A stretch of DNA of 63,021 bases, the filler included, from Stramenopiles sp. TOSAG23-3 (lineage: Eukaryota), in assembly GCA_900128585.1 (NCBI GenBank). It is 3 parts of 3 records of this genome, joined end to end, with 100 filler letters (N's around TTAATTAATTAA, not from the genome) between each part and the next. Parts side by side here need not be neighbours in the genome. Positions count along the whole stretch, not along the records: positions 21,166 to 42,059 come from LT642366.1; 2 more parts are not named here. The stretch is one strand, 5' to 3'. The stretch's first letter is position 1; every line of letters starts with the position of its first letter. Under the pieces are notes generated by a model. The model saw nothing but the letters and a program-made list of their open reading frames with translations. It was not told the origin of the DNA and made no database searches. Positions 10,569 through 40,821 of this stretch are shown here, in pieces. Position numbers and translations under genes: made by a program.

Positions 10569-12929
10569 ATGTGCTGCAGATTTGGAAAAACCCTGTTGGC
10601 CCCAAGGCTGCTGTGGGTATTTGCCCTGTCCTTCACCGCAGTGTTTCTTTTTCTTGACATCGTGAGCCTGTTCGAGAACGACCCAAAGATTAGAAATGTT
10701 TTTGAGCGCGATCCTAAGTACCTAAAATGTGGCGGGAGTGGTGTCGGGACAGTGGCCGAAAACAAGACCGCGCACATTCCTGCTCCGGCTTGGAAGGGAG
10801 GTTGCCCGAAAGTCAAAGACTTGTCGCGCGCAGATGTGTTGAACCATCTGGACCCATTGGTCTATGTGGACAGAGAAAATGACATTCGAAATGCAATCTT
10901 GCACCCGGAAGATTTCAATTCGAACATTATGCACAATTTCGCCGTAGTCTATGCCCCGCAAAGCTCCGTCAGTAAGCGGACAGGGTATCCGTGGTGGGGC
11001 GTTGGCGGCCTTGACGGCAATACAGCACGGAACGCGTTTCTGAAAGGCATTTATCTTCTGAACTCTAAGGACGGGATAACATGGAGGCCGGTGCACGGCG
11101 ATCGGCCCATTTTCACAGAATTTGATCACCACTACAACGGCTTTTACCACAGCAGCTTCGATGGGCAGAACAGGGTCGTTTACGACGAGCACTTGGATCT
11201 TTTCTATTTTTTTACGCGGGCGAACGTCGGTCAAAACGCCCGGTCGTGGCAACGCAGCGTGTCGCGCGATATGGAATGTTTCACGACTTTGGTGCCTGTA
11301 AAGATGAAATTTTTTGGGGGGCGGTGCGGTGGCGATGATAATGCAGAACAGTTTTACACGTCCAGCGTGTTTCAGTTGCCAAAGATGTACCCAGGAGTGC
11401 TTTTTGCCGTCCCGCGTCGCCACGGTTCTCACGATCGTGGCACTTCGTCGCTGATGCATTCGTACGACTTGGGGGCGTCGTGGAGGCGGACGTCGGGGTT
11501 TCGACCTTGGGTAAACGTCAACTACACGCAGATGATAAATTCATGGTTCAAAGACTATTACTATTCAACGTTCGGGTGCGGGCTTTCCGAGGATGGGAAA
11601 GCAATCGAAGTCTACATAATGAAGGAAAGGCGGAAGCTTATTGTCCAGCGCGCCCCGCTTTTGCAAAGCGAAAAGGGGCACGATCGCTACCGGCCTCGGG
11701 TCGCGGCCCTGAAGGTAAGAGCGGGTAACCCTACCTCCTTTATCACTCGAAAGATAAAATTTGGCGGGAGGTGCGAACTGTTTGTTGATTTTAGCGGGAA
11801 TCCGCCTCAAATCGCCGTGCTGGACTCCCAAGGAAGGGAGATGAAGGCATACGCGCTTGGCGCAAGCGAAATTGCCGAAGAACTTGGGAGCGTCTTGTGG
11901 CGGACCGCCAAGGAGAATGGTGCGACACGTGTCCTTCCAAAGGCGGATGTAGTCCGGCTGAGGGTGGACGGGGAAGGTTTTGAGTTGTTTTCTATCACGT
12001 GCAAGGCACGGGAGAAGAAAGGCAAGATGCTAAAGCAGGCGGGCGAAATGTACGCCCAAAGGCTTTTGGAAAACATGGAGTACCGGATCAACCGAACACA
12101 CCCGAATGTCTACCTGACTTCGACGGACGACTACTTGGAGTACAACAAACCCTTTGTATTTCACGAGTTCTGGCACGGCCGCAGAGATCGAACCATCTAT
12201 ACGCTGGATTTCCATTTCATCGAAAAGGTGGTACGGGGAAGCATAGAGTTTTTGCTGACGCGCCCAGAAGCGTCTTCAACGGTGATTTACGAGTTCCCAA
12301 AAGACACGCACGTTATATATCCTCAGCTCGTAAACATGAACTACTACGGTGGCATTGGGGCGGAAAGGTCTTCGCTCGCGCCCTCGGAGAATGGTGGTGC
12401 CAAATGCGCCTCCCGCGGCGAAGGAACGATAGAGTTCCCCTTGCGGTTGTTCGTCAATGCTTACCCGCTGCGAAAATTAGAAGGCGGCGGGTTCTCGCAC
12501 ATGCACGACTTTTTCAATTACGTGATGCTGCACGTGGCAAAACCGGGCGATAGAACTAAGTGGTACGTTCCACGGGAAATAGCGGAGAAAACAAGAAAGA
12601 GTTTCTGCCCCGGGGCCAGTATGAAGTGCATTCTCAATTTTGGCGCGTTTAAACCATCTGGGGTGTTCAATATTCGTACCGCCGGCGCGCTGCAACAGTT
12701 TTACCGCAGCTGCATTTGGTTGTTGCTTGGCATGTTGCCATTTTTCATATTTTTGCTGTGCATACAACCGCGGGCCTACACGGTTCAAAATAAGTGGTGT
12801 TTAAAGGGGTTGAAAGCCATGGTATTTGCCAGCTTCCTCTCACTCGTGTTGTCCTTGCTGTCGGATCGCGAAATTGGCGTATTCCACCGAGGGATTTACA
12901 GAAAGAGCCTTCGGCTATCGGCACAGTAG
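10569..12929 (+). CDS. Membrane-anchored glycoside-hydrolase-like five-bladed beta-propeller protein (GH32/43/130-like clan)
   Basis: 786-aa ORF with N-terminal signal anchor and two C-terminal hydrophobic helices. SKDGITW, FDGQNRVVYDE, SVSRD and SYDLGASW motifs are typical of this propeller group. Confidence 0.6.
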   Translation: MCCRFGKTLLAPRLLWVFALSFTAVFLFLDIVSLFENDPKIRNVFERDPKYLKCGGSGVGTVAENKTAHIPAPAWKGGCPKVKDLSRADVLNHLDPLVYVDRENDIRNAILHPEDFNSNIMHNFAVVYAPQSSVSKRTGYPWWGVGGLDGNTARNAFLKGIYLLNSKDGITWRPVHGDRPIFTEFDHHYNGFYHSSFDGQNRVVYDEHLDLFYFFTRANVGQNARSWQRSVSRDMECFTTLVPVKMKFFGGRCGGDDNAEQFYTSSVFQLPKMYPGVLFAVPRRHGSHDRGTSSLMHSYDLGASWRRTSGFRPWVNVNYTQMINSWFKDYYYSTFGCGLSEDGKAIEVYIMKERRKLIVQRAPLLQSEKGHDRYRPRVAALKVRAGNPTSFITRKIKFGGRCELFVDFSGNPPQIAVLDSQGREMKAYALGASEIAEELGSVLWRTAKENGATRVLPKADVVRLRVDGEGFELFSITCKAREKKGKMLKQAGEMYAQRLLENMEYRINRTHPNVYLTSTDDYLEYNKPFVFHEFWHGRRDRTIYTLDFHFIEKVVRGSIEFLLTRPEASSTVIYEFPKDTHVIYPQLVNMNYYGGIGAERSSLAPSENGGAKCASRGEGTIEFPLRLFVNAYPLRKLEGGGFSHMHDFFNYVMLHVAKPGDRTKWYVPREIAEKTRKSFCPGASMKCILNFGAFKPSGVFNIRTAGALQQFYRSCIWLLLGMLPFFIFLLCIQPRAYTVQNKWCLKGLKAMVFASFLSLVLSLLSDREIGVFHRGIYRKSLRLSAQ

Positions 12930-34100: not shown

Positions 34101-35402
34101 ATGCGGTCTTGGTTTTGGCGGGAGCCTTTATACCGCGTAGTCTTAGGGTTGCTGCTGGTTATGGACTATTTTTCGTACCTTTTGAGATGGGTAGGCGTTT
34201 TGAAAGATAAATCCAACTTTGTACCGGGCCAGCAAGTACAATTGGCATTTTTGGAGGAGAAAAATGAGCTTGGCGTTGATTTCGAGGACACGTTTCACGA
34301 AGAGGCACTCCGGAACGTTCTTCCCGGACTGTGGAACTGGTATTTGTACGGTCGGTTGTTTCCCAAGTTAATGATCCAGCCTTCTCTTCAGCGGAAGCGG
34401 AACGTTGAATTGCGCTACAAACAGCGTCTCCAATCAGGGACGTTAAGAAAACATTTGCCACTGACGATATGGATTGTTGGGCTGCCAAGAACGGGCTCAA
34501 CGTTTTTTCACAAGCTCTTGGCGTTGGATGATAGGGGTTACGCCGCGCGGCACTGGGAACTTCGTGCCCCTGTTCCCCCGGCCTCTGGGGCCGATTCGCG
34601 CCTGGAAGATTGCAGGACCTTCAACAAATCTGCGTATAGTATGATGCCAAAGATGAGGCGTATACATAATGTTGAAGCGGAAGACCCAGACGAATGCGTC
34701 ATGGGGTTTTGTGATTGCGCGTTCCCAGAGTTTTACCTGTGGGGCTGCCGGGACATGAAGCCGGCCTACGACTGGTACATGGGGAGCACGATGGTTCCAC
34801 AGTACTCAAATTATAAGAAACTTCTGCAAGTATTGTGCAGCCAGAAAGACAAGACATGCAGCTCACATGTCGTCTTGAAGTCGCCCCACCACACAGCAAA
34901 ACTAAAGACAATCGCCAAGATTTTCCCAAACTCAAGGTTTGTCTGGCTTCATCGTCCTCTTGAGAACGTCGTTGCCTCGACGTGTAGCATGAACGAAACC
35001 CTGAACGACTATACCGATGCATTTTATTTGCCGTCACAAAAAATGGGGGAACGAACGTTAGATCGCTTGGCAGATGTCATGAAGCGCGGATTAAAAGAGC
35101 GTCGAGAGCTTGAAGATACGAAAAAAAGCATGCCCCCGAAATTTACGGACATTTACTACAACGAGTTAATCGCGGACCCGATTGGAACCGTCAAAACGCT
35201 TTACAAGGAGTGCGGCCTGACGGTGTCCAAAGAATTCGAGCAGCGTCTGACGACATATTTGGAAGACCAGGCCGAAATGCGGCGGCAACGGCGGAGCACC
35301 GGAGCCTCTCACAAATACACGCTGGAGAATTTCGGTTTGACGAAAGAAGCAGTGAACCACCAGTTTGAAGAGTACCTAAAGGTGCATGGGGAGGGACTGT
35401 AA
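34101..35402 (+). CDS. PAPS-dependent sulfotransferase (Sulfotransfer_3 / Stf3-like)
   Basis: 5'-PSB loop IVGLPRTGSTFFH; PDEC; VLKSPHH; 3'-PB WLHRP...VASTCS; ELIADPIG. Confidence 0.9.
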   Translation: MRSWFWREPLYRVVLGLLLVMDYFSYLLRWVGVLKDKSNFVPGQQVQLAFLEEKNELGVDFEDTFHEEALRNVLPGLWNWYLYGRLFPKLMIQPSLQRKRNVELRYKQRLQSGTLRKHLPLTIWIVGLPRTGSTFFHKLLALDDRGYAARHWELRAPVPPASGADSRLEDCRTFNKSAYSMMPKMRRIHNVEAEDPDECVMGFCDCAFPEFYLWGCRDMKPAYDWYMGSTMVPQYSNYKKLLQVLCSQKDKTCSSHVVLKSPHHTAKLKTIAKIFPNSRFVWLHRPLENVVASTCSMNETLNDYTDAFYLPSQKMGERTLDRLADVMKRGLKERRELEDTKKSMPPKFTDIYYNELIADPIGTVKTLYKECGLTVSKEFEQRLTTYLEDQAEMRRQRRSTGASHKYTLENFGLTKEAVNHQFEEYLKVHGEGL

Positions 35403-36180: not shown

Positions 36181-36392
36181 AGAAGAAGAAGAAGAAGAAG
36201 AAGAAGAAGAAGAAAGAAGAAGAAGAAAGAAGAAGAAGAAAGAAGAAGAAGAAGAAGAAAGAAGAAGAAGAAAGAAGAAGAAGAAGAAGAAGAAAGAAGA
36301 AGAAGAAGAAGAAAGAAGAAGAAGAAGAAGAAGAAAGAAGAAGAAGAAAGAAGAAGAAGAAGAAGAAGAAAGAAGAAGAAGAAGAAGAAGAA
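36181..36392. repeat. Compound (GAA)n/GAAA polypurine tract
   Basis: About 210 nt of purines between divergent genes. Confidence 0.95.
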
Positions 36393-36672
36393 GGAATAAT
36401 AATATAAGAAGAAAATGAAAATGAAAAGATACTACACAAAAAGACGACTATAAAATAATAATAATATAATAATTGTCGTTTTCTTTATTTGAATTGATTG
36501 ATTGATTGATTGCGCATGATCCAAGCAAAACAAACCGAAACAAACCAAACGATTCAATTATTAGTATTCTTTCTTTAGCTCGACTCTTCATAAAATTTAC
36601 TCATCTCTCAGTTTACTATTTAGCCACCATCCACATTTTTCGAATTCAGAAGACAGTCTTCTTGCTTTTACA

Positions 36673-39657
36673 ATGAGTTTCTTGGACCATTTGTTTACTA
36701 AGATTGTTGCGGGGGAGATTCCTTCGTACAAGATTTACGAGGACGAACTAACGTACGCTTTTCTCGACATCAACCCCCTCTCGGAAGGTCACTCTTTGGT
36801 TATTCCAAAGAAGAAGTACGTAAAGATGGACGATGTGCCGGCCAAGACAGCCGCGGCGCTCGGAAAAACGGTGAACTTGATTGCCGCTGCTATCAAGAAA
36901 GCCACGGGGTGCGCGGACTACAACATTCTGCAAAACAACGGGAAGGCCGCCCACCAGGAAGTCCCTCACGTCCACTTTCATATTATTCCAAAAAAGGGAA
37001 GCATGGGCCTCGGGGTCAAGTGGGACGCGCAGAAATTGTCGGAGGCCGAAGGCAAGGCCGTGCAGGGGAAGATCGTCTCGGCAATTGCCGAAGCGTCCGA
37101 GGACGAGCACCGCTTGTCGCAGAAGGTCGTTCCGCGAAACTACCAGCTGACGCTGAGCCCGGACTTGGGCACGTTCTCGTTTACGGGCAAGGTCGTGATT
37201 GAAGTCGACGTGCTGGAGCCCACTAGCTCGGTCACGATGCACGCGGCAGACATTGATAATGTCTCCGCGCGCGCGTGGAAGTGCGGCACGGACAGCTCGA
37301 ACGGACAAGCGATGACGGGGGTCAGCTTCAACGAGAAAAAGCAGCAGATGACGCTGGAGTTTGCAGAGGCTTTCCCAGCCGGCGCCCACTCCCTTGAGAT
37401 CACGTTCACCGGGACACTGAACGACAAGATGCATGGGTTCTACCGGTCCACGTACAAGGACCCGAACGGAGAAGAGAAGGTCATGGCGACCACGCAGTTC
37501 GAAGCCACGGACGCGCGCCGGGCATTCCCGTGCTGGGACGAGCCCGCCTTCAAGGCCACATTCGACATGACGTTGATCATCTCCGACCCGAAGCTGACGG
37601 CACTCTCCAACATGCCGGTTCGCTCGACCGAGACCTTGGACAACGGAAGCGTGTCGTACACGTACTGGAGAACCCCTGTGATGAGCACGTACCTTCTTGC
37701 CTTCATCGTGGGGGAGCTCGAGAGCATATCGGGAAAAACGGAGAGCGGCACGGAGGTGAGCATTTACACCACGCCCGGGAAGCTGAACCAGGCAGAGTTC
37801 GCCTTGGACACCGGCATCAAAGTCCTGAACTTCTTCGAGGAATACATGGGGATCCGGTACCCTCTCCCGAAGCAGGACATGGTGGGCATCCCGGACTTCG
37901 CCGCCGGGGCCATGGAGAACTGGGGCCTGATCACGTACCGCGAGACTGCCCTTTTCGCCACGGCCGAATCTTCGGCGTCTGGCAAGCAGCGGGTCGCCTA
38001 CGTGATTGCGCACGAGCTGGCCCACCAGTGGTTTGGGAACCTTGTGACGATGGAGTGGTGGTCGGATCTGTGGCTGAACGAGGGGTTTGCGACGTGGGCC
38101 GGGTGGGTCGCCATCGACAACATTTTTCCGGAGTGGGACGTTTGGACGAACTTTACGAACGACGACGTCGGGTACGCCATGAAGGTGGACGCTCTGGCCA
38201 GTAGCCACCCCATCCAAGTAGCGATCGGCGACCCCTCGGAAATCGACCAAGTCTTCGATGCCCTTAGCTACAGCAAGGGCGCGTCGATGATACGAATGGT
38301 CGAGGCCCACGTCGGCGCGGACGTGTTCCGGCTGTCCCTTCGCAATTACCTGGAGCGCCACCAGTACAAGAACACGTTGACCGCGGACTTGTGGGCAGCC
38401 ATTTCGGAGTGCGCCGGGTACAACGTGGCCGAGATCATGGACTCGTGGTGCCTGCACATGGGGTTCCCGGTCATAAATGTGGAGTCCCGCAAGGGGAACG
38501 TCCTGTCCTTGAGCCAGTCCCGCTTCCTGTCGGGTGGCCAGAAAGACGCGGGGGACCACAAGTGGGCCGTTCCCCTGCACGGCCTGAACTCGACCGGGCA
38601 GGTGACCAGCACCATGCTAAACGGGGAAACGTGCGAGTTTGCGGCCGAGGGGGGGTGGCTGAAGCTGAACGCCGGCCAGACCAGCTTCGTCCGAGTAAAC
38701 TACGACGAAGAGGGCTGGAAAGCATTGCAGGATCCGATATCGTCCCGCGCCCTGCCCCCCGTGGACCGGCTCGGGATCGTCATGGACGCGTTCGCGCTCG
38801 CCAAGGCCGGGATGATGGCGACCCCGACCGCGCTGGACCTTTGCCGCGCGTACAAGGACGAGGACTGCTACCCTGTGTGGAACGCCGTCAACAGCGGCCT
38901 GGCGGAGGTCTCCGACATTTGCTCGGGGTGCGACTTTTTCAAAAAGTACGAGTCCTTCTGCGGGGAGGTGTTCGGGAACCTGCACGCCAGGCTCGGCTGG
39001 ACGGCGAAGGACGGCGAAGGCGACCTGACAAAGAAGCTGCGGGCGCTGTGCCTGGGCGCGGCTGCAAAGTACGGGAACGACGCCGTCGTGAAGGAGGCGC
39101 TGTCCCGGTTCAAATCGTACTGCGACGGGGGCGATCTGGACGCGGACCTGCGCTCCGTCGTCTTCAAGTGCGCGGTGAAGTTTGGTGGCCCCGCAGAGTT
39201 TGACAAAATGCTGGAGCTCTACGAATCGCTCCCGACGCCGGAGCAGCAGATGACGGCCCTGACAGCGGCAAGCCTTACCCGCGACCCCGCGTGCGTCGCA
39301 AAGTACTTGGAATTTGCGTTCAGCGGAAAGGTGAAGAAGAACAACGTCCTGTACGTTTTTGCCGGGCTCGCTGGGAACGCGGCAGCCCGGGACGCCGCGT
39401 GGGAGTTCGTCAAGGCAAACTGGAAGGGCAAGATCACGCCCATGTTTGAAGGGTCCCACGGGCTATACGCTTACATGGTCGCGCTTCCCATCCGTGGCTT
39501 CGTTACCTTTGAAAAGGCGCAGGAGGCGGAAGACTTTTTTACGGAAAACCCTGTGCCGGCGGCGTCCATGCGGCTGAGCCAGACCCTGGAAAGCATTCGG
39601 ACGCGGGCCAGCTGGCTCCAGCGCGAAGAGAAAGCGCTCGCGGCGTTCTTTGCGTGA
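36673..39657 (+). CDS. HIT (HINT-type) hydrolase fused to a puromycin-sensitive-type M1 aminopeptidase
   Basis: aa 1-~135: LFTKIVAGEIPS, AFLDINPLSEGHSLVIPK, NNGKAAHQEVPHVHFHIIP (histidine triad). From aa ~145: TQFEATDARRAFPCWDEP, GAMENWGL, HELAHQWFGNLVTMEWWSDLWLNEG, YSKG, then an ERAP1-like C domain. One uninterrupted 994-aa ORF. Confidence 0.96.
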   Translation: MSFLDHLFTKIVAGEIPSYKIYEDELTYAFLDINPLSEGHSLVIPKKKYVKMDDVPAKTAAALGKTVNLIAAAIKKATGCADYNILQNNGKAAHQEVPHVHFHIIPKKGSMGLGVKWDAQKLSEAEGKAVQGKIVSAIAEASEDEHRLSQKVVPRNYQLTLSPDLGTFSFTGKVVIEVDVLEPTSSVTMHAADIDNVSARAWKCGTDSSNGQAMTGVSFNEKKQQMTLEFAEAFPAGAHSLEITFTGTLNDKMHGFYRSTYKDPNGEEKVMATTQFEATDARRAFPCWDEPAFKATFDMTLIISDPKLTALSNMPVRSTETLDNGSVSYTYWRTPVMSTYLLAFIVGELESISGKTESGTEVSIYTTPGKLNQAEFALDTGIKVLNFFEEYMGIRYPLPKQDMVGIPDFAAGAMENWGLITYRETALFATAESSASGKQRVAYVIAHELAHQWFGNLVTMEWWSDLWLNEGFATWAGWVAIDNIFPEWDVWTNFTNDDVGYAMKVDALASSHPIQVAIGDPSEIDQVFDALSYSKGASMIRMVEAHVGADVFRLSLRNYLERHQYKNTLTADLWAAISECAGYNVAEIMDSWCLHMGFPVINVESRKGNVLSLSQSRFLSGGQKDAGDHKWAVPLHGLNSTGQVTSTMLNGETCEFAAEGGWLKLNAGQTSFVRVNYDEEGWKALQDPISSRALPPVDRLGIVMDAFALAKAGMMATPTALDLCRAYKDEDCYPVWNAVNSGLAEVSDICSGCDFFKKYESFCGEVFGNLHARLGWTAKDGEGDLTKKLRALCLGAAAKYGNDAVVKEALSRFKSYCDGGDLDADLRSVVFKCAVKFGGPAEFDKMLELYESLPTPEQQMTALTAASLTRDPACVAKYLEFAFSGKVKKNNVLYVFAGLAGNAAARDAAWEFVKANWKGKITPMFEGSHGLYAYMVALPIRGFVTFEKAQEAEDFFTENPVPAASMRLSQTLESIRTRASWLQREEKALAAFFA

Positions 39658-39999
39658 ATCAGAGTGCGCGGGAGATGAATAATTTCTTACCGGTCAGTGC
39701 GGTACGTCATTCTTAAGAATTCTTAAAGAATCCTATATGAGATTACGTTAAACATATCTATATATAATTTGTTTTCAATAAATTGTGTCGAACACGACTT
39801 CTTTAAACAATATGCGCGTATGCACCCGAGAGTGTACGAAGTATTTTACGAATTGTTGTTGAATACACATAGCCATTTAAATATTGTCTTATTGTTGAAA
39901 CAATTATCATATCATACCTTACGCTTTACTTTCTTTATAAAGTTTTACACACTTTCGTCCGCTAAAAAACTGTTGTAAAGGGGGAAAGTTGCCTCCCGT

Positions 40000-40821
40000 T
40001 TACTCTTCGTCCTCGTCGTCGTCCGAATCGTCCTCGTCGTCATCGTCGTCCGAGTCGTCCTCGTCGCTCTCTTCGTCCTCGGCGGCTATCTCGTCCATGG
40101 CAGCTTTGCGGGCAGCAAGGGCATCTTCTGGCTTTACCATCGCCCACTTCATGCCGGTCTCTTCGCACACCCAGCTCATCTCCAAAAGGTAAGGCTTGTC
40201 TTTGACGTCGTCGTGGACAATCTCAATGATCTTAGCGAGGTCTTTGAGCGCCTCCCTGCAGGTCTTGTCGGAAAATTTCATGCGCTCGATCTCCGTCTTG
40301 GCCGCACGGGCGCCCTTTCCCACGGAGTGGCCAAAGTAGCGAAGGGCGTTGCCGGCAGAGTCTACGCCATAGAGTTCGGCCTCTTTGTTGGTCGCGTCGT
40401 ACCCGGCGAAAATGAAGCTTGCGCCGAAGGGCCTGAACTGGTAATAACATGTATACGCGTGGATGAACTGCCCCATTTGGTCCGCCAGCTGCTGCGGGAT
40501 GATGGGAAGCGCGTAGGCGCCTTTGAACTGCTTCGCGACGGAGCGCGCGCGCAAGGCCAGCTGCCGCCCGTCCGGCAAAATCCCCGACGTGACCATTCCG
40601 CAGTGAAGGTCCAAACCAAAATGGGCCCGGTTGCTCGAATCTACCAACATTTTCGAAAACAGCAACTTCTCGTTGGCCAAGACTACCCCGTCCTTGCACT
40701 TAACCCCGATTGATGTGCCGCCTGAATCGATCGCCTTTTGGGCGTATTCCACTTGAAAAATTCTACCGTCGGGACTATAGATCGTGGGCGCATAATCGTA
40801 TCCAGCTCCAGTCGAAGACAT
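40000..40821 (-). CDS. PSMA3: 20S proteasome subunit alpha type-3 (alpha7)
   Basis: MSSTGAGYD...YSPDGRIFQVEYAQKA, GKGARAAKTEIE, VHDDVKDKPYLLEMSWV, acidic tail. Confidence 0.97.
   Translation of the reverse strand: MSSTGAGYDYAPTIYSPDGRIFQVEYAQKAIDSGGTSIGVKCKDGVVLANEKLLFSKMLVDSSNRAHFGLDLHCGMVTSGILPDGRQLALRARSVAKQFKGAYALPIIPQQLADQMGQFIHAYTCYYQFRPFGASFIFAGYDATNKEAELYGVDSAGNALRYFGHSVGKGARAAKTEIERMKFSDKTCREALKDLAKIIEIVHDDVKDKPYLLEMSWVCEETGMKWAMVKPEDALAARKAAMDEIAAEDEESDEDDSDDDDDEDDSDDDEDEE

What the first reader, a model, noticed from the sequence alone, without database searches (positions are those of the whole stretch)
36673..39657. Intact HINT-type HIT hydrolase fused to an M1 aminopeptidase: candidate two-step peptidyl-nucleotide processing or detox enzyme
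Seen: one uninterrupted 994-aa ORF with a complete HIT domain (HVHFHII triad), a short helical linker and a complete M1 peptidase (GAMEN, HExxH-x18-E, YxKG). Both active sites look intact. Known: HINT proteins hydrolyse nucleoside phosphoramidates and aminoacyl-adenylates and are usually small stand-alone homodimers. Microcin-C-type peptide-nucleotide antibiotics are activated by aminopeptidase trimming and can be inactivated by HIT phosphoramidases. Inference: the fusion could channel peptidyl-nucleotides (prey-derived toxins, or nucleotidylated peptides left by the proteasome) from trimming to P-N hydrolysis, or use HIT to dimerise the peptidase. I do not recognise this architecture from characterised proteins. 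It sits tail-to-tail with proteasome alpha7 on the same contig, and both genes are conspicuously GC-rich.
Basis: partly seen in the sequence, partly recalled or inferred. Interest (0 to 1): 0.8.

Follow-up and report, generated by a model that had tools for sequence, protein, structure and literature searches.

The report
HINT hydrolase fused to PSA-type aminopeptidase
An uncultured marine protist, probably a stramenopile, carries one gene that joins a small nucleotide-removing enzyme (HINT) to a large peptide-trimming enzyme; the join is real and shared by related lineages, but its purpose is still only inferred.

Summary
Window 36673..39657 (+) is one 994-aa ORF. It has a complete HIT domain (H40, H99-V-H101-F-H103-I-I) followed by a complete four-domain M1 aminopeptidase (GAMEN 412-416, HELAH 447-451, E470, Y533).

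The fusion is not an assembly or gene-model artefact:
- Contigs from three RNA runs and one independent DNA run bridge the domain junction, with no spliced joints.
- The same architecture occurs at 59-73% identity in five other full-length or nearly full-length proteins and five shorter fragments.
- These form one clade on both the M1 tree and the HIT tree.

The HIT part is a "type I" HINT, closest to the Leishmania and Candida HINT structures. The M1 part is closest to puromycin-sensitive aminopeptidase.

The microcin-C detox idea fails the published MccH signature (HxHxK, N-terminal His to Phe). The domain is a canonical HinT type, and the two HinT enzymes assayed barely cleave processed microcin C.

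Best reading: a cytosolic, probably highly expressed and probably dimeric bifunctional enzyme of peptide recycling. Any coupling of nucleotide removal to peptide trimming is inference. Four full-text searches found no description of it. It is a new variant of known kinds, of moderate interest.

The parts
36613..36672 (+). probable 5' UTR
   Evidence: RNA contigs of three runs begin at 36613, 36621 and 36634 and none covers 36300-36547. This is a weak hint only, because contigs cannot show transcript ends.
36673..39657 (+). single-exon gene for the 994-aa HIT-M1 fusion protein, stop codon included
   Evidence: ORF; no joints in 4 laid runs; the exact protein also occurs on other public contigs (P0155 and P0159).
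36673..37095 (+). type I HINT-like HIT domain, residues 1-141, including the C-terminal helix 124-141
   Evidence: Pfam HIT 14-108; best solved relatives 3ksv at 5.7e-30 and 6iq1 at 2.9e-28; model pLDDT block means 83-98 with helix 124-141.
36790..36792 (+). codon of His40, the conserved N-terminal histidine of HinT-type enzymes
   Evidence: H in 8 of 8 fusion rows covering it and in 49 of 49 stand-alone HIT rows; its role is taken from PMC7157772 section 10.
36967..36987 (+). histidine triad HVHFHII (H99, H101 the predicted nucleophile, H103)
   Evidence: H99 is kept in 9 of 9 fusion rows covering it, H101 and H103 in 10 of 10.
37096..37125 (+). true inter-domain linker, residues 142-151
   Evidence: Coil between helix 124-141 and strand 152-164, pLDDT block mean 78. 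Only 30-50% identical among orthologs, against 66-70% for HIT in the seven orthologs that cover most of the domain, and 59-73% for M1 in those with at least 230 aligned residues.
37129..37695 (+). Peptidase_M1_N beta-sandwich domain (residues 153-341)
   Evidence: Pfam 1.6e-53.
37798..38448 (+). M1 catalytic domain (residues 376-592) with GAMEN 37906-37920, HELAH 38011-38025, E470 at 38080-38082 and Y533 at 38269-38271
   Evidence: Pfam 6.6e-84; motifs; A413-N416, H447, E448, H451, E470 and Y533 are invariant in the 8-row alignment A1.
38656..39600 (+). ERAP1_C helical domain (residues 662-976)
   Evidence: Pfam 6.6e-83; the model matches PSA 8sw0 and closed ERAP1 (TM normalised by target 0.86-0.93).
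39658..39762 (+). probable 3' UTR
   Evidence: RNA contigs end at 39697, 39724 and 39762. There is no RNA cover over 39772-39895, while the DNA contig X7 runs on. Weak hint only.
40000..40821 (-). neighbouring proteasome alpha7 (alpha type-3) gene, tail-to-tail; context only, no link shown
   Evidence: Separate RNA contigs start at 39921-39922.

Best explanation
This is a genuine, transcribed, intron-free nuclear gene of an uncultured marine protist with stramenopile affinities. It encodes a bifunctional cytosolic enzyme made of two modules.

Module 1 (residues 1-141) is a canonical HINT-type nucleoside 5'-phosphoramidase of the 'type I' subfamily. H101 is predicted to attack phosphorus and form a nucleotidyl-histidine intermediate, helped by H103 and H40. 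It would release AMP or another NMP from P-N adducts such as AMP-lysine or amino-acid phosphoramidates. Its own C-terminal helix, which clamps the homodimer in the closest solved HINTs, runs through about 10 residues directly into module 2.

Module 2 (residues 152-994) is a puromycin-sensitive-aminopeptidase-type M1 zinc exopeptidase. It would trim N-terminal residues from oligopeptides, such as those released by the proteasome.

The fusion arose once and is kept under purifying selection on both halves in a small clade.

Most likely working mode (inferred): the HIT pair makes the protein a dimer with two peptidase lobes, and the two activities act on the same pool during peptide and amino-acid recycling. 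HINT would strip nucleotidyl groups from lysine side chains or alpha-amino groups of peptides and amino acids, which would otherwise block trimming or survive it.

My odds: real conserved fusion 0.95; both sites active 0.8; dimer through HIT 0.5; shared nucleotidylated-peptide substrates 0.2-0.25.
For: SHOWN
- One ORF with four Pfam domains.
- The M1 part is closest to PSA 8sw0 (1.6e-216), ahead of ERAP1 (9.9e-154). Foldseek on the model also ranks PSA first.
- The HIT part is closest to the Leishmania (3ksv, 5.7e-30) and Candida (6iq1, 2.9e-28) HINTs, far ahead of human HINT1 (about 1e-10) and FHIT (1e-7).
- Every HIT residue that is invariant or nearly so in 49 stand-alone relatives (D32, P35, G39, H40, L42, Q95, H99, H101, H103, P106) is kept in all fusion rows that cover it.
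- The M1 catalytic residues are invariant.
- Orthologs with the same architecture: 3 of the 120 listed hits; 6 of 8 proteins scanned; 6 of 37 hits in the 'longer' HIT search; plus fragments P0197, P0205 and P0244.
- Identity to the window protein is 66-70% in HIT (seven orthologs covering most of the domain) and 59-73% in M1 (at least 230 aligned residues), but 30-50% in the linker.
- Single origin: the 6 fusion rows are one clade (SH-like 100) on a 55-row, 865-column M1 tree. On a 137-row HIT tree, 8 fusion rows plus the fragment P0244 form one set (SH-like 98).
- Junction: RNA contigs X4 37000-39762, X18 37009-37331 and X6 37064-38275, and DNA contig X7 36676-37756, bridge 37096-37125. No joints were reported.
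- RNA cover stops in both intergenic spacers while DNA cover runs on in the 3' spacer.
- GC3 shows no break at the junction: 0.76 for codons 101-150 and 0.80 for codons 151-200.
- The AlphaFold2 model has mean pLDDT 93.3 and pTM 0.87. It shows helix 124-141, then a coil, then strand 152.
- The N-terminus starts directly with the HIT fold (helix 2-12), so there is no presequence.

FROM PAPERS
- The type I C-terminal helix clamps the CaHINT and LmHINT dimers (PMC6354057, passages).
- The two HinT enzymes assayed hydrolyse epsilon-K-AMP (PMC7157772 section 8).
- PSA degrades proteasome-released peptides (abstract start in the listing).

INFERRED
- High expression, from GC3 0.82 against 0.32-0.63 for other ORFs.
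- Cytosolic location, dimer formation and substrate coupling.
Against: - No single RNA contig spans the whole ORF. In all three RNA runs the contigs break inside the HIT coding region: 5' pieces end at 36887-36995 and 3' pieces start at 37000-37064. The His triad and the M1 domain are therefore joined only in DNA contigs and in predicted proteins. The 5' pieces also have lower word depth (3.3-5.1 against 5.6-11.8).
- No activity, oligomeric state or substrate was measured.
- The fusion HIT lacks the CxxC zinc motif found in Candida HINT and in about half of the stand-alone relatives (27 of 42 rows have Cys at position 6 and 27 of 49 at position 9; no fusion row has Cys at either).
- This HIT type is fused to many unrelated partners elsewhere, including GST, FKBP, RNase H, GreA and WD40. 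A fusion alone is therefore weak evidence for a shared substrate.
- The genome is not held, so I could not ask whether stand-alone HINT or PSA copies coexist with the fusion.
Confidence: 0.65

Rival explanations
1. Two independent housekeeping activities on one chain. The HIT domain serves mainly as a dimerising or co-expression module for the peptidase. HINT and PSA each keep their usual separate substrates and nothing passes between the sites.
For: The retained C-terminal helix is the dimer clamp of type I HINTs. The linker is short but poorly conserved, at 30-50% identity. This HIT type is fused to many unrelated partners. No solved chain or listed cluster links the two folds.
Against: The catalytic residues of HIT are strictly kept in all fusion rows covering them, so the domain is not a mere scaffold. 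The fusion has been kept across lineages that have diverged to 59-73% identity, which suggests some benefit of linkage.
Confidence: 0.3
2. Two-step processing and detoxification of microcin-C-like peptidyl-nucleotides from prey bacteria. The M1 part trims the peptide and the HIT part cleaves the released aminoacyl-amide adenylate.
For: The chemistry is coherent. McC is processed by non-specific peptidases, and MccH-type HIT enzymes cleave the product (PMC7157772, abstract and section 8). The domain has a C-terminal extension, as MccH does (section 12).
Against: The MccH signature is absent: the third triad residue is His103 rather than Lys, the N-terminal His40 is kept rather than Phe, and Ala93 stands at the Glu position. 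The two canonical HinT enzymes assayed left processed McC largely intact and gave no immunity. No mcc-like genes or any other context were found among the window ORFs scanned.
Confidence: 0.04
3. Amino-acid and aminoacyl-adenylate homeostasis. HINT hydrolyses stray aminoacyl-AMP released by aminoacyl-tRNA synthetases while the peptidase supplies free amino acids, linking peptide recycling to charging fidelity.
For: That HINTs accept aminoacyl-adenylates such as lysyl-AMP is recalled from the literature. Only the listing was seen, and no passage was read. Both halves look like highly expressed housekeeping genes by GC3.
Against: No synthetase gene or other link was found among the window ORFs scanned.
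Confidence: 0.1
4. Artefact: an assembly chimera, or two adjacent genes merged by read-through of a short spacer.
For: No single RNA contig covers the whole ORF, and RNA contigs break within 36887-37064 in all three runs.
Against: The breaks lie inside the HIT domain, not at the domain boundary, and a HIT-only message ending there would have no stop codon. An independent DNA contig covers 36676-37756. The exact 994-aa protein is predicted on other public contigs. Ten related sequences (five full-length or nearly so, five fragments) keep the same frame and the same junction motif; R147 and L148 are present in 10 of 10 rows. There is no in-frame Met between M111 and M189, so the M1 part has no start codon of its own.
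Confidence: 0.03

Closest known systems
Puromycin-sensitive aminopeptidase (NPEPPS; PDB 8sw0, 9o5k)
   Same: Residues 146-990 align end to end with PSA (E 1.6e-216). The four-domain M1 fold is the same (Foldseek rank 1, 41% identity). GAMEN, HExxH-x18-E and the catalytic Tyr are present. There is no signal or transit peptide.
   Different: It carries a 141-residue HINT domain at the N-terminus, which no solved M1 chain has. Among 500 Foldseek matches, the 40 listed are all M1 aminopeptidase chains.
Type I HINT proteins: Candida albicans CaHINT (6iq1) and Leishmania major LmHINT (3ksv)
   Same: These are the best solved relatives (2.9e-28 and 5.7e-30). The canonical H40 and HxHxHxx are present, and so is the extended C-terminal helix that clamps the dimer in these structures (PMC6354057 passages; model helix 124-141).
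   Different: The CxxC zinc motif is absent. The C-terminal helix does not end the chain but leads into an 850-residue peptidase. Neither the dimer nor the activity was tested.
MccH-type HIT phosphoramidases (microcin C immunity)
   Same: HIT fold with a C-terminal extension and P-N bond hydrolysis chemistry.
   Different: The clade signature ExxxxxHxHxKxx and the His-to-Phe change are not present here.
NitFhit (PDB 1ems), the classic HIT 'Rosetta stone' fusion
   Same: A HIT-superfamily hydrolase joined to a second enzyme in some lineages and separate in others, used to infer a functional link (1ems in the list; the listing of PMC9913352).
   Different: It involves a different HIT branch (Fhit, 2.1e-10 to this domain), a different partner (nitrilase) and a different domain order.

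Membership tests
HIT superfamily, HINT branch | Histidine triad HxHxHxx with hydrophobic x | tested here: met
   HVHFHII at residues 99-105. H99 is kept in 9 of 9 fusion rows covering it, H101 and H103 in 10 of 10. Pfam HIT scores 95 bits against a cut-off of 21.5.
HIT superfamily, HINT branch | Conserved N-terminal His (H39 of E. coli HinT) that supports the third triad His | tested here: met
   H40 within G39-H40. It is H in 8 of 8 fusion rows and 49 of 49 stand-alone rows. Its role is taken from PMC7157772 section 10.
HIT superfamily, HINT branch | Closer to HINT than to the Fhit, GalT, aprataxin or DcpS branches | tested here: met
   The best solved hits are HINTs at 5.7e-30 to about 1e-10. 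FHIT scores 1.1e-7 and Ap4A phosphorylase 1e-6.
HIT superfamily, HINT branch | Type I extended C-terminal helix (classification of PMC6354057) | tested here: met
   The alignment to 6iq1 runs to residue 141. The model shows helix 124-141 with pLDDT block means 93 and 89. The stand-alone relatives P0201, P0203, P0204 and P0206 share the segment.
HIT superfamily, HINT branch | CxxC zinc-binding motif | tested here: not met
   Positions 6 and 9 are H and T in the window protein, and no fusion row has Cys at either position. Cys is found in 27 of 42 stand-alone rows at position 6 and 27 of 49 at position 9. The motif is described in PMC6354057. It is not universal among the stand-alone relatives.
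HIT superfamily, HINT branch | Homodimer | not tested
The dimer is inferred only from the retained clamp helix.
HIT superfamily, HINT branch | Nucleoside phosphoramidase activity | not testable with these tools
   Needs an enzyme assay.
MccH clade of HIT phosphoramidases | Third triad His replaced by Lys (HxHxK) | tested here: not met
   H103 in 10 of 10 fusion rows. The definition is in PMC7157772 section 10.
MccH clade of HIT phosphoramidases | N-terminal His replaced by Phe, and Glu placed as in the printed motif ExxxxxHxHxKxx | tested here: not met
   H40 is kept, and A93 stands six residues before H99. The paper's alignment figure S4 is a supplement and was not seen.
Peptidase family M1 (PSA-like) | GAMEN exopeptidase motif | tested here: met
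   Residues 412-416. A413-N416 are invariant in A1.
Peptidase family M1 (PSA-like) | HExxH-x18-E zinc site and catalytic Tyr | tested here: met
   H447, E448, H451, E470 and Y533, all invariant in A1.
Peptidase family M1 (PSA-like) | N-terminal beta domain, catalytic domain and ERAP1_C helical domain | tested here: met
   Three Pfam domains between 1.6e-53 and 6.6e-84. The model superposes on PSA and ERAP1 with TM normalised by target 0.86-0.93.
Peptidase family M1 (PSA-like) | PSA rather than another M1 subfamily | tested here: inconclusive
   PSA is the best solved hit by 60 orders of magnitude over ERAP1. However, a protein labelled as a bacterial MAG product scores the same (725 bits, 44% identity), and no subfamily tree with named eukaryotic PSAs was built.
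Peptidase family M1 (PSA-like) | Aminopeptidase activity and puromycin sensitivity | not testable with these tools
   Needs an enzyme assay.

The most novel reading that the evidence does not exclude
The fusion would act as a natural 'Rosetta stone' for the unsettled physiological role of HINT enzymes. Their real substrates would be nucleotidylated peptides and amino acids, for example Lys-epsilon-AMP or -GMP remnants of ligases and capping enzymes, or N-alpha-nucleotidylated termini, that appear when such proteins are degraded. In this lineage the de-nucleotidylation step would be physically coupled to PSA-type N-terminal trimming in one dimeric machine acting downstream of the proteasome.
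Probability: 0.15. Interest if true: 0.75.

Novelty: new variant of a known kind. Interest (0 to 1): 0.45.

Why it matters
HINT enzymes are nearly universal and, by my recall, are known as activators of phosphoramidate prodrugs. What they hydrolyse in cells is still debated. A conserved natural fusion to the main cytosolic post-proteasomal aminopeptidase gives a concrete, cheap hypothesis to test: nucleotidylated peptides or lysine adducts as shared substrates. It also offers a ready-made protein for structural work. In addition, it is a clean lineage marker (one origin, one junction) for a group of abundant but uncultured marine protists. The stretch was held by public runs of 14 studies. If the two halves turn out to work independently, it is simply one more protist domain fusion.

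Tried and rejected
- Complex prediction, HIT (1-145) against M1 (146-994): no verdict (score 0.00, controls not run, alignment not used). It is evidence neither for nor against docking.
All were stand-alone HIT genes at 33-60% identity and no fusion ortholog was recovered. Three loci matched out to residue 200. The one I read (L069) is a 132-aa stand-alone HIT followed by another gene. Uninformative about distribution.
- Representative library with the HIT domain: 13,483 hits at E <= 0.001. None of the 150 listed is a full-length fusion; the longest, 732 aa, is HIT plus a weak, sub-threshold WD40 match. Full-length fusions probably cluster under M1 representatives, so this does not measure rarity.
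- ESM Atlas, residues 1-380: only M1_N clusters at 0.84-0.85, below the useful score, and no structure search was possible.
- Own-genome search: no genome is held, so paralogs could not be sought.
- Earlier findings: nothing on record.
- Paper search for an accession prefix shown beside a relative: no hits.
- Literature: co-mentions of HIT and M1 or PSA were proteome lists or unrelated; no listed paper describes this architecture. Paper supplements were closed.
- Rejected reading: that the RNA contig breaks mark two transcripts. They lie inside the HIT domain, there is no stop codon and no usable start codon, and DNA is continuous there.
Full report
THE OBSERVATION

One search lists a single ORF at 36673..39657 on the + strand, 994 aa from an ATG. 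Pfam places four domains:
- HIT at residues 14-108 (E 4.5e-27, 95 bits against a cut-off of 21.5)
- Peptidase_M1_N at 153-341
- Peptidase_M1 at 376-592
- ERAP1_C at 662-976

A script located the motifs: HVHFHII at 99-105, GAMEN at 412-416, HELAH at 447-451 with E470, and YSKG at 533-536. The neighbour at 40000..40821 (-) is proteasome alpha type-3, which is yeast alpha7. Both genes are GC-rich: GC3 is 0.82 and 0.73, against 0.32-0.63 for the 15 other ORFs measured.

IS THE FUSION REAL?

Public runs. 20 of 24 listed runs, from 14 studies, hold the stretch. I laid three RNA runs and one DNA run from four different studies.
- The true linker (37096-37125) is bridged by RNA contigs X4 (37000-39762), X18 (oligo-dT, 37009-37331) and X6 (37064-38275), and by DNA contig X7 (36676-37756).
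- No joints were reported, so there is no intron.
- RNA contigs begin at 36613-36634 and end at 39697-39762. They leave both intergenic spacers uncovered, while the DNA contig runs on through the 3' spacer. This fits transcripts rather than contaminating DNA.

Caveat. No RNA contig spans the whole ORF. In all three RNA runs the contigs break between 36887 and 37064. That lies inside the HIT coding region, not at the domain boundary. A message ending there would lack a stop codon, and the next in-frame Met after M111 is M189, inside the M1_N domain. I read the breaks as assembly breaks at the less deeply covered 5' end, but only long reads can settle this.

Predicted proteins elsewhere. The exact 994-aa protein is predicted on other public contigs (P0155 on 3 contigs, P0159 on 2).

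ORTHOLOGS

Counts of hits with the same architecture:
- 3 of the 120 listed hits for residues 1-400 carry HIT plus all M1 domains (P0001, P0002, P0003).
- 6 of 8 proteins scanned have the full architecture. P0005 is cut inside the HIT domain and P0004 has no HIT domain.
- 6 of 37 hits in the 'longer' HIT search carry HIT plus M1 domains.
- P0197, P0205 and P0244 are fragments that run from HIT into the M1_N start.

Identity to the window protein:
- HIT domain: 66-70% in the seven orthologs that cover most of it
- M1 part: 59-73% where at least 230 residues align
- Linker: 30-50%

Both halves are therefore under similar constraint. R147 and L148 at the junction are present in 10 of 10 rows.

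Trees:
- On a FastTree of 55 rows and 865 M1 columns, the six fusion rows form one clade (SH-like 100).
- On a 137-row HIT tree (140 columns, poorly resolved overall), the eight fusion rows plus P0244 form one set (SH-like 98).

One origin is the simplest reading.

THE ORGANISM

The other window ORFs scanned encode DNA primase small subunit, condensin subunit 2, CLP1, WD40, kelch, C2 and EGF proteins, and a sulfotransferase. This is a eukaryotic nuclear genome with mostly single-exon genes.

For the primase, the closest relatives (53-70%) are unnamed environmental sequences. The named hits, at 40-48%, are overwhelmingly stramenopiles: brown algae, Hondaea, Cafeteria, oomycetes and Nannochloropsis. 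No named species appeared among the fusion carriers.

THE HIT MODULE

On its own, the HIT module is closest to Leishmania 3ksv (5.7e-30) and Candida 6iq1 (2.9e-28). Human HINT1 scores about 1e-10 and FHIT 1e-7.

Passages of PMC6354057 class those two structures as 'type I' HINTs. Their extended C-terminal helix clamps the dimer. The alignment to 6iq1 runs to residue 141. The AlphaFold2 model (mean pLDDT 93.3, pTM 0.87) has helix 124-141, a coil at 142-151 (block mean 78), and then the first M1 strand.

All residues that are invariant or nearly so in 49 stand-alone relatives are kept in the fusions. The CxxC zinc motif, present in about half of the relatives, is absent.

THE M1 MODULE

The M1 module aligns end to end with puromycin-sensitive aminopeptidase (1.6e-216, against ERAP1 at 9.9e-154). 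The model matches PSA and closed ERAP1. All 40 listed Foldseek matches are M1 aminopeptidase chains, so no listed solved chain covers both folds.

THE MICROCIN C IDEA

I read sections 8, 9, 10 and 12 of PMC7157772.
- MccH-type enzymes cleave processed McC. They carry ExxxxxHxHxKxx and have Phe in place of the N-terminal His.
- The two canonical HinT enzymes assayed cleave epsilon-K-AMP but leave processed McC largely intact and give no immunity.

The domain here has H40, H103 and A93 at the three defining positions. It fails that membership test and resembles the canonical HinT type instead.

MECHANISM

Shown: two intact, conserved catalytic modules on one chain, with no presequence.

From established knowledge and the papers above: HINT chemistry goes through a nucleotidyl-His intermediate on P-N adducts, and PSA trims proteasome-derived peptides. 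The PSA statement rests on an abstract seen only in the listing.

Inferred: a dimer formed through the HIT pair and its clamp helix, high expression from codon bias, and action of both sites on one pool of peptides and amino acids in which nucleotidyl groups on lysine or on N-termini must be removed.

This HIT type is also found fused to GST, FKBP, RNase H, GreA and other partners, so the fusion alone is weak evidence for shared substrates.

NOVELTY

Four full-text searches found no description of a HIT-M1 protein. Automatic source names call the relatives 'puromycin-sensitive aminopeptidase' or 'aminopeptidase N/diadenosine tetraphosphate (Ap4A) HIT family hydrolase'.

I rate it a new variant of known kinds: a lineage-restricted domain architecture built from two well-known enzymes. 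It is moderately interesting as a lead on HINT's physiological substrates.

Noticed in passing
window 36181-36393: A 213-bp imperfect (AGA/GAA)n microsatellite, 67.7 copies at 90% matches, lies about 280 bp upstream of the fusion gene's ATG in an AT-rich spacer.
   Followed up: partly
window 36673-39657 and 40000-40821, compared with the other ORFs: There is strong codon-level GC heterogeneity. GC3 is 0.82 for the fusion gene and 0.73 for proteasome alpha7, against 0.32-0.63 for 15 other ORFs. CLP1, the EGF protein and the WD40 protein are lowest at 0.34-0.37. This may reflect expression-linked codon bias.
   Followed up: partly
window 36887-37064: Contigs of all three RNA runs break in this interval inside the HIT coding region, while a DNA contig is continuous. 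The 5' pieces have roughly a third to nine-tenths of the word depth of the next contig downstream. The cause was not established.
   Followed up: partly
window 39757: DNA run X7 lacks 18 bases here, in the probable 3' UTR or spacer, and differs at 39791, 39888 and 39891. This is strain-level variation in the spacer between the two convergent genes.
   Followed up: no
P0002 / P0139 (relatives), within the ERAP1_C region: A 48-residue, Phe/Ser/Leu-rich in-frame insertion is absent from all other orthologs. It looks like an unspliced intron read through by the gene caller. P0133 and P0139 also carry 44-54 extra N-terminal residues, which may be translated 5' UTR.
   Followed up: no
relatives P0166, P0168, P0171, P0182-P0185, P0186, P0189, P0199, P0211, P0295: The same HIT subtype is fused elsewhere to GST, RNase H, FKBP, GreA, dienelactone hydrolase and a UvrD-like helicase, and possibly to a second HIT copy (P0199 shows two phmmer stretches, but Pfam finds one HIT domain) and to WD40 (a weak, sub-threshold match in P0295).
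   Followed up: partly
relative P0198 (206 aa): This is the closest HIT that falls outside the fusion clade: 63% identical with the same HQEVPHVHFHIIPK stretch. It has a 72-residue N-terminal extension and ends right after the C-terminal helix. It may be a stand-alone, possibly organelle-targeted, copy in a related lineage, or a cut fragment.
   Followed up: no
window 10569-12929 (+): A 786-aa ORF with GC3 0.63 has no Pfam family at E <= 0.001.
   Followed up: no
window 34101-35402 (+): A Sulfotransfer_3-family sulfotransferase gene (9.2e-30) lies upstream of the fusion gene. No link to it was found.
   Followed up: no
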